This document shows positions 30,001 through 33,000 of a stretch of 36,655 bases of DNA, piece by piece (positions within the stretch are counted from its first letter, which is position 1; every line of letters begins with the position of its first letter). Source of the stretch: a virus; UHGV virus genome UHGV-0180966. One strand, written 5' to 3'. The position numbers are program-made.

Positions 30001-33000
30001 CATGAATGCTCTGAATACAGCGGTCGCAAGACAGGAACGGCTTGGGACGTCTGCCAATCAAAGCCTGCTTACATCCTTGCGTAACCTACGTGAAGAATTA
30101 GCAAACCCTGCAACTGATTTGGATGTTACGTTTGATCTCTTGCGTCAGCACAGAACAGCATTTAGATCTAATGTTCAGGGAGATGCTATGGTCTTCCCCA
30201 ACCAGGCAAAAGCAGCTACCAATATGGTAGAGAATGCAATGTCAAAAGACCTTCGTAACGCAGTTGCTAAAAACCTCGGTGCATCAGACGCAGCAAAATA
30301 CCTTAAAGCAAATTCCGATTATGCAAACGTTTATAATAAGGTGCTTAATAAAAACATTGCCAACAAGCTCAACAAGGCAAGCAGTGAAGCCAGTCCTGAA
30401 CTTATAAATACCGTTGTATTAAGCAGAAAACCATCTGACGTGAAACGAATCTGGAGCGCATTGGATGATAAAGGGAAAGATGCTATGCGTGCAGCTTACG
30501 TCAGCAAAATAGCGGAAAAGGCCGGGGACTCTCCAGCCAAGTTCATCACTGAAGTTAATAAGCTGAAATCTCAGTCAGGCGGTGAAATTTACAACACTAT
30601 TTTTTCTGGAAAGCACATGAAAGAACTTGATGCTCTTCATGAAGTTCTACAGCAAACAGCAAGATCAGACACCGCAAATGTAGTAACTCAGACGGGGCAA
30701 TCACAAGCCAACAGGATAAGGACGATTGGCGCAACTGCGACTCTTGGAGTATCAATGGGGATTGAGGCTGGTTTTGGTGCAATGATGCGTTTGTATGAGT
30801 CCAAAGCAGCAAGGAATGCGCTCTTACGTCTGGCAAACACTAAAGCTGGAACGCCAGCCTATGAAAGAGCGCTGAATAACGCCGCAAATGCCATCAGACC
30901 AATACTTGCCAATGATGCAACTGATCGCTAAGGGTTGATGTCATGGATGTTGTTAATTGCGAATGGAATCGCGGAACTCTTTGCTTGATAGAAAAGGATC
31001 TGTTCTCCTTAACTCATCATAGTTTTTATTAAACTTTCTTGCTTCACCTGGGTATCTGTTGAACAAAACATTGCAGAAAAAAGAGAGCAATAACTCACAT
31101 ATGAATGCTAATACCCTGAAAAATAAAGGTATAAAAAGAAGGGAAGGTTCATTGAAGTCTCTATTCCAAACAAAATAGACAATCATCCCGACATACCAAA
31201 TTGATATCCCTATACTGATGATTGTTCCAACAGAGGTAACTACGATCCCGATTAAGTCGGACAGTCTGTTTGCCAGTAACTCATTTGAGTATCTTGCAAT
31301 CATATACCGCCAACATTTTGCAATATCATCCTGATCTGTAGAGTCTTCTGGAATAGCTAGGCTTCTACATATTGAAGTAGCTCTTTTTTTCTCAACTCTT
31401 TTTGAGAGCCATCCATTAAAGAGATACATCAACACCTGCGTTGCTATTCCTGCACCAAGTGATATCAAAGACATCCCCAAAAATCGCCATCCTGGAGATA
31501 GTGACTGGTATTGCCAAACAAAAAAAATTAAAAAACCCAATGAGCCTATGACATAGGCTGATGTATCGCTATATATATCTATTTTTTTCATTGAGTAGCC
31601 ACTCCTTAGTTTTGTGCGGTATGAAAAATTTAAATCAGGCCTTCATCGGTGAGTTTGCCGACAATCCACATCTCACCCTCGGCGTAGAACATGGCTCGCC
31701 GGTAACCATCCTCAGCTTTTAAGCTCTTGCAATCTTCTCAGCGCATTTACGCACAACTCGCGGTATCGTCTCTTTCAGCTCATCCCACGAGTTGACAAAC
31801 TCCATATCAAGAGCCTGAACAAGAGACTTCTGTATCTCGCTGCGCAACTGGTTGGTTTTTGCATCCTGAGAATCCCAGGTATCAAACCCGGTAACTTCAC
31901 GGATATCTATCGATTCCTTAACCACCTTTGCAACCTGAATGAAATGACCACTATGACCAATCCTACCTTCTGTACGCTCAAGCATCCGACTAACTGCTGC
32001 GTTAAGCTCCACAAAACTTGCCGCACCAATGTTTCGCAACTCGACCTGTCGCTGGGTGATAAAACGATCAATGACGAGAAAGTGGAAATAAGTGCTGTAC
32101 TGCTCGGCGACATACACCGCCAGATGGAGACTTAGCCACGTTTTCCCATTCCTTCCTCTCGTTGTTTTTAACGGAATAATACCAGTCTCCTCTTCACAAA
32201 CACGCATGAAGTCTTTGCAGTCATCCGTTTTCAGTATCTGAGCAAGATTTCTTGGTTGAAGGCCGTTATCAAATCTCCATCGGTTCATTTGAACGGTTAG
32301 TGTTGACGCATCGATATACTCATCTCTGGTGAACTCGACTTCACCGTATGGGAACTCTAAAGTCTGCACTTTCATATCTTTTTCTCCAATTAATTACCTC
32401 ACTTAAATTATATTCCTAATTTATTTGTTTATGCAACCATTAATACGCAAAATTAGAGCAAATTAGACTTTTTAGGTGTTTGCGTGTGAACAATCTCTAG
32501 CCATGCCATCACTCCAAGTTAGTGTATTGACATGATAGAAGCACTCTACTATATTCTCAATAGGTCCACGGTGGACCCATGTTGTGAGGTGAATATGAAA
32601 GGAATGAGCAAAATGCCGCAGTTCAATTTGCGGTGGCCTAAAGAAGTATTGGATTTGGTCCGCAAGGTGGCGGAAGAGAATGGTCGGTCTGTTAACTCTG
32701 AGATTTATCAGAGAGTAATGGAAAGCTTTAAGAAGGAAGGGCGCATTGGCGCGTAAAGTTGAAGCCCCAACTGCGGGAGCAGTCAGGGCTTAAATCGCCA
32801 GTAAATTTTGAGGAAAAACTGACATGAAAAGTATAGCAACAGCAGTATCTACTATCAACGTGCCATTCCACGGCGCAGAGCTTTATGTCGTCAATCACAA
32901 CGGCGAACCGTATACCCCAATGAAACCTATCGTTGAGGGAATGGGTATGGATTGGGCTTCACAGTTTACAAAGTTAAAACAAAGATTTGCTAAAGGTATT

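What the first reader, a model, noticed from the sequence alone, without database searches (positions are those of the whole stretch)
31624..31697. Antirepressor 3'-end remnant between the two accessory genes marks a recombination scar
The minus strand encodes MFYAEGEMWIVGKLTDEGLI-stop, identical at the amino-acid level to the C-terminus of the AntA-type antirepressor at 12313-13044 (DNA about 85% identical by eye), with no gene body attached. The KilA-N gene therefore appears to have been inserted by recombination at an antirepressor cassette boundary, implying that ant-gene termini act as exchange points for accessory cargo.
Basis: seen in the sequence. Interest (0 to 1): 0.5.

Follow-up and report, generated by a model that had tools for sequence, protein, structure and literature searches.

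The report
Antirepressor gene stub in P22-like phage
A 66-base leftover from the end of an antirepressor gene lies between two accessory genes of a P22-like phage and marks where two phage lineages were spliced by non-homologous recombination, which is an ordinary by-product of phage genome mosaicism.

Summary
Minus strand 31695..31630 encodes A-MFYAEGEMWIVGKLTDEGLI-stop. This is identical in protein to the end of the AntA+ANT antirepressor at 12313-13044. It is 83-85% identical in DNA (self-blastn E 4e-13), and all 10 sense-codon differences are synonymous. No gene body is attached.

Comparison with relatives bounds it as an 83-bp orphan (31618-31700) between two modules. The 218-aa KilA-N-fold gene, divergent promoters and arc (31701-32750) are 97% identical to other P22-like phages. 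In those phages a lipoprotein gene follows directly. The sieA type B / gp16 arm (up to 31617) is 97-99% identical to E. coli HS1-like prophages.

The stub comes from a third, once-functional ant allele, not from a copy of the resident gene. It is best read as a non-functional scar of one illegitimate crossover that cut inside an ant gene 66 nt from its end.

The full-length ant beside sieA was not found in any collection searched. Of about 75 related ant 3' ends examined, this is the only isolated stub. Two other ant fragments in the nin region break at the inter-domain linker instead.

Degraded ant genes in this "ant moron" are already described. Interest is low.

The parts
31630..31695 (-). 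3'-terminal remnant of an ANT/KilAC-family antirepressor gene: an Ala codon, 20 codons (MFYAEGEMWIVGKLTDEGLI) and TAA
   Evidence: Alignment to 12979-13044. Self-blastn E 3.7e-13. 82-84% identity to the 3' end of the Jerseyvirus 'anti-repressor/DNA-binding protein' genes.
31618..31700 (.). Orphan segment between two module joints. It comprises the remnant, 5 nt on its 5' side and 12 nt after its stop codon.
   Evidence: blastn break points at 31617 and 31701 against all relatives; alignment A1.
31701..31718 (-). Vestigial intergenic spacer after the 218-aa gene. In relatives it carries the GAGG ribosome-binding site of a 161-aa lipoprotein-like gene that is absent here.
   Evidence: Alignment with L003. 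4 of the 29 mismatches of the 1,050-bp module fall in these bases.
31719..32375 (-). 218-aa protein with an N-terminal KilA-N/APSES-like fold. It sits in the position that mnt has in P22.
31701..32750 (.). Module shared at 97.2% with a second lineage of P22-like phages. It holds the 218-aa gene, divergent promoters and arc.
   Evidence: blastn against L003, L004, L005 and L008.
30953..31617 (-). sieA type B gene (30953-31591, 212 aa) plus the 26-nt leader with its ribosome-binding site that always travels with it
   Evidence: PF26849 SIEA and phrog_7745. 97-99.9% identity to E. coli prophages including HS. The same break occurs in 29 loci. HS1 SieA is type B according to PMC10883804.
12313..13044 (+). 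Resident full-length AntA + ANT antirepressor. Its last 66 nt (12979-13044) are the partner of the remnant.
   Evidence: Pfam, PHROGs, alignment.
32527..32560 (.). Overlapping divergent promoter-like sites: Pant-like on the + strand and Pmnt-like on the - strand
   Evidence: Consensus scan, 11/12 and 10/12 matches.
32757..32823 (-). sar antisense RNA of the immI region
   Evidence: Rfam RF00262, 62 bits, E 9e-12.
32824..33555 (+). P22-type antirepressor (P22_AR_N) downstream of arc (Arc domain within 32532-32756)
   Evidence: Pfam.

Best explanation
The stub is a non-functional scar. The window phage is a hybrid in the hypervariable 'ant moron' between ejection gene 16 and the tailspike gene.

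One parent resembled the L003/NODE_154 phages. Read along the window's minus strand, it carried the promoter region shared with arc, then the 218-aa KilA-N-fold gene, an RBS spacer and a 161-aa lipoprotein gene, lying next to the gp16 (797 aa) gene.

The other parent had the HS1-type arm: gp20, gp16 (608 aa) and sieA-B. Upstream of sieA, on the same strand, it carried an antirepressor of the N-domain + ANT/KilAC family.

A single illegitimate (non-homologous) crossover joined the first parent, 5 nt before the lipoprotein start codon, to the second parent, inside ant 66 nt before its stop. A second, homologous crossover elsewhere in the conserved virion genes completed the hybrid. Both flanking genes stayed intact, so the hybrid was viable.

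The stub now lies in the untranslated spacer of a leftward transcript. That transcript probably starts at the Pmnt-like promoter and runs through the 218-aa gene into sieA.

Shown: the homology, the two break points, the purifying-selection signature and the absence of an RNA structure or terminator. Inferred: the ant-sieA parent (not sampled), the one-step order of events and the co-transcription.
For: 1. The two break points are 83 bp apart. Each is defined by many independent relatives: 31617 in 29 sieA-B loci and 188 E. coli genomes, and 31701 in 8 contigs with the identical 218-aa gene.

2. The spacer 31701-31718 keeps the lipoprotein gene's RBS region seen in L003, with 4 mismatches, although that gene is gone.

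3. All 10 sense-codon differences from the resident ant are synonymous, P < 5e-6. The 3'-most codons and the TAA stop resemble the Jerseyvirus and L044 alleles rather than the resident gene. The stub therefore derives from a separate allele that was functional until recently.

4. Full-length genes of this family occur at other sites in sister phages: the nin region (L040, L045) and the early-left region (L044). They are mobile cargo in this lineage.

5. The stub RNA has no structure above background (z 0.07). No terminator-like or promoter-like site was found between the 218-aa gene and sieA. There is no Rfam match.

6. The literature describes this region as the 'ant moron', with 10 types in 16 genomes and degraded ant genes in HK620 and Scho1 (PMC2629481).

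7. At least 6 different sequences abut the sieA-B leader in 20 loci.
Against: No genome with a full-length ANT-family gene next to sieA-B was found, so the second parent is hypothetical.

The closest DNA relative of the stub is only about 86% identical (L044).

The direction of events cannot be proven from two states. L003-type could derive from window-type or the reverse.

Only one sequence version of the stub exists (L007 = L011), so present-day selection on it cannot be tested.

The stub keeps an ATG and an intact 20-codon frame, so translation cannot be formally excluded.
Confidence: 0.75

Rival explanations
1. In-situ deletion. A single ancestor already carried the 218-aa gene, other DNA, a full ant and sieA in this order. 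A simple internal deletion removed everything from just after the 218-aa gene's spacer to codon -21 of ant.
For: It yields the same final sequence and needs no second parent. Deletions are common in the ant moron, including degraded ant genes (PMC2629481) and a partial mnt pseudogene in E. coli strain numer 3.
Against: The deletion end point would have to coincide, to within a few bases, with the independent joint that separates the 218-aa module from the lipoprotein gene in the L003 lineage. The spacer retains the RBS geometry that fits the lipoprotein gene, not an ant gene.
Confidence: 0.15
2. The stub is functional. Either it is a translated 20-residue micro-protein that mimics the Ant C-terminus, or it is a spacer needed for sieA expression, and selection keeps it.
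For: The ATG and stop are intact. The protein is 100% identical to the resident Ant although 10 of about 13 synonymous sites differ. Other alleles of similar DNA distance differ at 3-4 of these 20 residues.
Against: The nearest Shine-Dalgarno-like GAGGA is 16 nt from the ATG (sequence). There is no structure signal. The same 20-residue peptide is encoded by at least three full-length alleles in sister phages, so identity is expected from ancestry. The stub was seen in one lineage only and was absent from all other collections. In relatives, sieA-B works with quite different upstream DNA (PMC10883804).
Confidence: 0.05
3. The stub is an intragenomic copy of the resident ant 3' end (12979-13044), made by ectopic duplication or gene conversion, that has since drifted.
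For: The protein sequence is identical and a 20-nt exact run is shared.
Against: A non-coding copy would drift without regard to codons, yet 10 of 10 sense-codon changes are synonymous. The flanks are unrelated. The last codons and the stop codon match other alleles (GGC, ATT, TAA as in Jerseyvirus or L044) better than the resident gene.
Confidence: 0.03
4. The similarity is chance, or the junction is an assembly chimera.
For: The window is a metagenome contig.
Against: E is 3.7e-13 within the window. An identical junction appears in a contig built by another assembler (L011), with three further similar places. The exact repeat is only 20 nt, too short to mislead assemblers.
Confidence: 0.01

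Closest known systems
Degraded ant genes in the 'ant moron' of P22-like phages (HK620, Scho1), described by Villafane et al. 2008 (PMC2629481)
   Same: The genomic slot is the same: between the gene 16 and gene 9 homologues, inside the late operon. It is the same phenomenon of decayed antirepressor genes in a region of very high genetic flux, with ten types in sixteen genomes.
   Different: As far as that paper says, those are decayed copies of the P22-type ant of the arc-ant operon. This stub belongs to the N-domain + ANT/KilAC family. It lies on the opposite strand, directly upstream of sieA, and is reduced to 21 codons. An intact P22-type ant (32824-33555) is also present.
Novel joints and gene-fragment scars of lambdoid phage mosaicism. 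This is the illegitimate-recombination model of Hendrix, Juhala, Casjens and colleagues, cited from my own knowledge and not read here.
   Same: Homology is lost abruptly at or near gene borders. The flanking genes are intact, and a short fragment of a lost gene sits at the joint.
   Different: Nothing essential differs. This is one more instance, here with both joints mapped to within a few bases.
P22 immI region (mnt, arc, ant, sar) with sieA
   Same: arc, P22-type ant, sar RNA, divergent overlapping promoters and sieA are in the same order and orientation.
   Different: There is no mnt; a 218-aa KilA-N-fold gene occupies its place. sieA is type B (HS1-like), not P22's type A.
Domain shuffling among KilA-N, Bro-N, Rha, AntA and ANT(KilAC) modules of phage antirepressors (Iyer et al. 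2002, from my own knowledge)
   Same: The window carries Rha+ANT, Bro-N+ANT and AntA+ANT genes side by side. The ANT halves share DNA, and there are fragments broken at the linker.
   Different: The stub of the finding is not a linker break. It is cut deep inside the ANT domain's last helix region and joined to unrelated DNA.

Membership tests
ANT/KilAC-family antirepressor gene (PF03374 C-domain with an AntA, Rha or Bro-N N-domain) | Sequence homology to the family | tested here: met
   The stub is identical in protein to the last 21 residues of the window's AntA+ANT gene. It is 82-86% identical in DNA to the 3' ends of family members.
ANT/KilAC-family antirepressor gene (PF03374 C-domain with an AntA, Rha or Bro-N N-domain) | A complete ANT domain (about 105 residues) preceded by an N-terminal DNA-binding domain in one reading frame | tested here: not met
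   Only 21 codons are homologous. An in-frame stop lies 16 codons upstream of the ATG, and no ANT-like sequence occurs in any frame upstream. It is a fragment, not a member gene.
P22-type immI / 'ant moron' | Location between the ejection gene 16 and tailspike gene 9 homologues | tested here: met
   gp16 at 29105-30931 (PF26808). The tailspike head-binding domain starts at 33617.
P22-type immI / 'ant moron' | arc, ant and sar RNA with divergent Pant/Pmnt promoters | tested here: met
   Pfam Arc and P22_AR_N. Rfam sar at 62 bits. Promoter-like pair at 32527-32560.
P22-type immI / 'ant moron' | An mnt repressor gene transcribed leftward from Pmnt | tested here: not met
   The only leftward gene there is the 218-aa KilA-N-fold protein, which has no Arc/Mnt domain. 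The remaining 155 bp are too short for mnt.
SieA type B superinfection exclusion protein | A 212-aa inner-membrane protein of the HS1 type located next to gene 16 | tested here: met
   The module is 96.9% identical in DNA to the E. coli HS prophage. PF26849 and phrog_7745. The type B definition is in PMC10883804. Function was not tested here.
Mosaic 'novel joint' made by illegitimate recombination | Abrupt, precisely mapped loss of homology on both sides relative to independent relatives | tested here: met
   Breaks at 31617 and 31701.
Mosaic 'novel joint' made by illegitimate recombination | No homology between the two parental sequences across the joint | tested here: inconclusive
   At the joint, L003 (GGTTACC|AATATG) and ant alleles (GGACACTCTCAGGCG|ATG) share at most scattered matches, 8 of 15. 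The actual ant-bearing parent is not available.

The most novel reading that the evidence does not exclude
The 20-codon frame is still used. It could be a small peptide identical to the Ant C-terminal tail, made from the prophage-expressed 218-aa-gene/sieA transcript, that interferes with or titrates partners of the phage's several ANT-family antirepressors. Alternatively it could be a retained homology patch that lets the phage recombine with ant-bearing phages such as Jersey-like viruses. Both the stub and the neighbouring 218-aa gene have their closest cultured relatives among those viruses.
Probability: 0.04. Interest if true: 0.5.

Novelty: new member of a known kind. Interest (0 to 1): 0.15.

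Why it matters
The stub is a clean, base-resolved footprint of how the most variable slot of P22-like genomes is rebuilt. It shows one non-homologous cut that left pieces of both lost genes: an RBS spacer on one side and a gene tail on the other.

It shows that ANT/KilAC-family antirepressors, normally found in the nin or early regions, have also resided next to sieA in the late-operon moron. It also documents gene flow between Jersey-like siphoviruses and P22-like podoviruses.

In practice it warns annotators not to call a 20-codon ORF here. It adds no new mechanism or system.

Tried and rejected
1. Search for the ancestral arrangement (full ant beside sieA):
- The exact junction pattern found nothing in IMG/VR.
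- The degenerate pattern for EMWIVGKLTDEGLI-stop found nothing in IMG/VR or in the GTDB species genomes.
- An exact 24-mer of the stub found nothing in the JGI/ENA metagenomes.
- The degenerate FYAEGEMWIV pattern found nothing in the GTDB genomes. In the metagenomes it found 10 loci, all with full-length genes elsewhere in the genome.
- tblastn of Ant against 17 IMG/VR and 2 E. coli sieA-B loci gave nothing.
- 79 IMG/VR loci with ANT-family genes had no sieA, gp16, 218-aa gene or tailspike nearby.
- Ten contexts of the exact SieA-B protein had no ANT gene.
- E. coli complete genomes have no match to the stub at all.

2. Contexts of the closest ANT-domain proteins, P0002 and P0005: a Jersey-like siphovirus array and a lambdoid nin region, not the ant moron.

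3. RNA explanations: the fold z-score is 0.07. Rfam found only sar, which lies elsewhere. There is no terminator or promoter in the stub.

4. A programmed frameshift from the 218-aa gene into the stub frame was considered and rejected. The stub frame is -1 relative to that gene, but there is no slippery heptamer at GCT-TAA-AAG (sequence).

5. The + strand 53-aa ORF at 31561-31722 was judged spurious. It is antisense to the sieA start and the stub.

6. A second apparent stub in L064 turned out to be a CAA>TAA nonsense change in an otherwise full gene.

7. The similarity between the 12 nt after the stub's stop and the type-5 sieA upstream (L024) was judged too short to interpret. The upstream gene there is a 60-aa secreted-type ORF, not ant.

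8. ncbifam, PADLOC and PDB sequence searches of the 218-aa protein gave nothing.
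Full report
WHAT THE WINDOW IS. The window is a complete metagenome contig, ENA ERZ1034905 NODE_344, 36,655 bp with coverage about 2,167. It is from a P22-like podophage. It has terminase, portal, scaffold, coat and ejection proteins gp7/gp20/gp16, a tailspike with the P22 head-binding domain, and a nin region. The finding lies in the slot between ejection gene 16 (29105-30931) and the tailspike gene (33617-). The literature calls this slot the 'ant moron'. It describes the slot as the most variable part of the late operon, with ten types in sixteen genomes and degraded ant genes in HK620 and Scho1 (PMC2629481; also bioRxiv 10.1101/2020.10.05.325894).

The minus strand 31695..31630 reads GCC ATG TTC ... 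ATT TAA and encodes A-MFYAEGEMWIVGKLTDEGLI-stop. The last 66 nt of the AntA (PF08346) + ANT/KilAC (PF03374) gene at 12313-13044 encode the same 21 residues. DNA identity is 53/62 in the best local alignment and 55/66 when the stop codons are included. In a self-comparison of the window the pair scores E = 3.7e-13. tblastn gives 2e-9. Upstream of the Ala codon the similarity ends, and an in-frame stop lies 16 codons before the ATG, so no gene body is attached. A contig from a different assembler (Logan, SRR7658643; L011) carries the identical 201 nt around the stub. This excludes an assembly artefact.

WHERE THE STUB COMES FROM. All ten differences in sense codons are synonymous. None of 200,000 random placements of ten substitutions gave that result. 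The two sequences therefore diverged while both were parts of working genes. The stub is not a decaying copy of the resident gene. It is the tail of a third allele that lost its body recently relative to that divergence.

The stub is a patchwork with respect to known alleles. Its first 40 nt look like the resident type. Its last 23 nt and the TAA stop look like the Jerseyvirus and L044 types. The best DNA match anywhere is about 86% (L044). Jerseyvirus 'anti-repressor/DNA-binding protein' genes match at 82-84%.

The 20-residue tail is encoded unchanged by at least three full-length genes in sister P22-like phages. These are NODE-1092 (L040) and NODE_154 (L044, L045), in the nin region and in the early-left region. 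Perfect protein identity therefore needs no special explanation.

THE ANATOMY OF THE SCAR. Two sets of relatives define the borders.

(a) The sieA side. The 212-aa gene at 30953-31591 is SieA type B (PF26849, phrog_7745; the HS1 prophage type of PMC10883804). The E. coli HS prophage is 96.9% identical to the window from at least 26897 to exactly 31617. All 17 IMG/VR loci, both annotated E. coli loci and ten further genomes break at that same base. Only 26 nt of leader, containing the ribosome-binding site, travel with sieA. Upstream of it at least six unrelated sequences occur. One of them (L024/L025) breaks at the same point as the window.

(b) The other side. The 218-aa gene at 31719-32375 is encoded, with an identical protein, in eight other P22-like contigs (L003-L006, L008-L010, L012). 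The four of these compared at DNA level (L003, L004, L005, L008) are 97.2% identical to the window over 31701-32750. That stretch holds the gene, the divergent promoter region and arc. Homology ends at 31701. In those phages the next gene, 21 nt after the stop codon, is a 161-aa lipoprotein-like gene (phrog_6067), followed by a different gp16 of 797 aa.

The window still has that 21-nt spacer with its GAGG box. The spacer carries 4 of the module's 29 mismatches, although the lipoprotein gene is absent.

What is left between 31617 and 31701 is 83 bp that belong to neither module. It consists of 5 nt, the 66-nt ant tail and 12 nt of its former 3' flank.

MOST LIKELY MECHANISM. One non-homologous crossover took place between an L003-like genome and an HS1-like genome. 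The L003-like genome was cut 5 nt before the lipoprotein start codon. The HS1-like genome carried an ANT-family gene upstream of sieA-B and was cut 66 nt before that gene's stop. A homologous exchange elsewhere in the shared virion genes completed the hybrid. Both neighbours stayed intact, which is why the hybrid survived and reached high abundance.

I found no significant homology across the joint. The stub shows no RNA structure above shuffled controls (z = 0.07). It has no Rfam match. No promoter-like or terminator-like site lies between the 218-aa gene and sieA.

The immI apparatus next door is canonical. sar RNA scores 62 bits at 32757-32823. A Pant-like and a Pmnt-like promoter overlap at 32527-32560. 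Arc and a P22_AR_N ant follow. The stub therefore most likely sits in the untranslated spacer of a leftward transcript that runs from the Pmnt-like promoter through the 218-aa gene into sieA. This last point is inference.

An in-situ deletion in a single ancestor would give the same sequence, and I cannot exclude it. It would, however, need its end point to coincide with the L003-lineage joint.

WHAT COULD NOT BE SHOWN. I tried it in every collection available and it failed. There were no exact or degenerate pattern matches in IMG/VR, GTDB species genomes or JGI/ENA metagenomes other than full-length genes elsewhere in genomes. None of the 29 sieA-B loci examined (17 IMG/VR, 2 annotated E. coli, 10 further genomes) has an ANT-family gene beside sieA. 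None of 79 IMG/VR ANT-family loci has sieA, gp16 or a tailspike nearby. No E. coli complete genome matches the stub. The ant-sieA parent is therefore inferred, not observed.

'Recombination scar' is right. 'Inserted at an antirepressor cassette boundary' is not: the cut is inside the ant coding sequence. The 218-aa gene came as part of a larger pre-existing module rather than as an inserted cassette.

'Ant termini act as exchange points' is not supported. Among about 75 occurrences of this C-terminal motif in roughly 55 loci, the window's stub is the only isolated one. The apparent second case, L064, is a CAA>TAA nonsense change in a full gene.

The window does show that ANT-family genes are rearrangement-prone, but at their inter-domain linker. 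The nin region holds a tandem array:
- a Rha-only gene at 8871-9299;
- a Rha+ANT gene at 9296-10024;
- a 92-aa Rha fragment at 10993-11271;
- a Bro-N+ANT gene at 11261-12019;
- an AntA+ANT gene at 12313-13044.

Compared with the sister phage L040, its single Rha+ANT gene is split in the window. The 5' part is at 10983-11257 (98.5% identity) and the 3' part at 12717-13770 (89.7%). About 1.46 kb is inserted between them, and a 25-nt stretch encoding EEKERLAL is present on both sides. The 142-aa gene similarly switches from L044-like to neighbour-like sequence inside the linker.

Its DNA, with 131 bp upstream (31741-32506), is 85-87% identical to a cassette in Jersey-like Salmonella siphoviruses. 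There the cassette lies between the portal and head-morphogenesis genes. The gene occupies the place of mnt, which is absent.

VERDICT. This is a real, neatly delimited but ordinary mosaic scar. It is a new instance of a known kind: a decayed antirepressor gene in the P22-like ant moron, at a novel joint made by illegitimate recombination. Interest is low.

Noticed in passing
window 8871-13044: The nin region holds a tandem array of five antirepressor-type genes or fragments: Rha-only (8871-9299), Rha+ANT (9296-10024), a 92-aa Rha fragment (10993-11271), Bro-N+ANT (11261-12019) and AntA+ANT (12313-13044). With the P22-type ant (32824-33555) and a DUF2737+Rha gene (35803-36501, minus strand), this is an unusually high load of antirepressor-like genes for one 37-kb phage.
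   Followed up: partly
window 10983-11257 and 12717-13770, against L040 9842-11142: A Rha+ANT gene that is intact in the sister phage L040 is split in the window by about 1.46 kb. The insert holds the Bro-N+ANT gene, a repeated leader and the AntA N-domain. A 25-nt stretch encoding EEKERLAL flanks both sides. The resident 'AntA' ant is therefore itself a linker-recombinant chimera. Its two halves differ in divergence from L040: 98.5% and 89.7%.
   Followed up: partly
window 10924-11000 and 12240-12316: A direct repeat of 77 bp at 89.6% identity lies upstream of two ant-type starts. Relative to L040 there is also a 106-bp deletion at 10983-11003 that removes the start of the Rha fragment.
   Followed up: partly
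window 9140-9300: The 142-aa Rha-only gene follows the L044-type Rha+ANT gene (95.7% identity) up to the EYEQK linker. It then switches to linker sequence like that of the next gene and ends. This is a second 5' ant fragment broken in the linker.
   Followed up: partly
window 31741-32506; Jerseyvirus records such as NC_019539 3367-4148: The 218-aa gene and 131 bp upstream are 85-87% identical to a cassette of virulent Jersey-like Salmonella siphoviruses. There it sits, flanked by terminators, between the portal and head-morphogenesis genes. The 'amidase' label in those records and in phrog_6095 looks wrong, because the predicted fold is APSES/KilA-N-like.
   Followed up: partly
window 31719-32560: No mnt gene is present. 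The 218-aa DNA-binding-fold gene sits opposite Pant, where P22 has mnt. It may be a functional replacement that regulates Pant. In the L003-type phages the same module has arc but no ant behind it; an HNH gene is there instead.
   Followed up: no
L015-L031, L001, L002, L126-L135, upstream of sieA: The sieA-B gene carries only a 26-56-nt conserved leader. At least six unrelated upstream sequences abut it. Two of them (the window and L024/L025) break at the same nucleotide, GC[T/A]CAAAACTAAGGAG.
   Followed up: partly
L003 6679-7164 (and L004-L006, L008-L010, L012): In the sister lineage the sieA position is taken by a 161-aa gene with a lipoprotein-type signal (MKKALLIIPFLLVGC; phrog_6067, unknown function). 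It lies next to a longer gp16 (797-875 aa) that has an SLT domain. It may be an alternative exclusion function.
   Followed up: no
L037, L038, L041, L055, L056, L058, L061: Contigs of about 31-50 kb, probably siphoviruses, carry two or three tandem ant paralogues. Their C-terminal ANT halves are nearly identical in protein and their N-domains differ.
   Followed up: no
L064 3780-3800: An otherwise full-length Rha+ANT gene has a CAA>TAA nonsense codon two codons before the MFYAEGEMW tail. This mimics a 20-codon stub.
   Followed up: yes
window 8852-8959 and 36170-36272: An inverted repeat of 108 bp at 83% identity lies between the start region of the Rha-only gene in the nin region and the Rha-type gene near the right end of the contig.
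   Followed up: no
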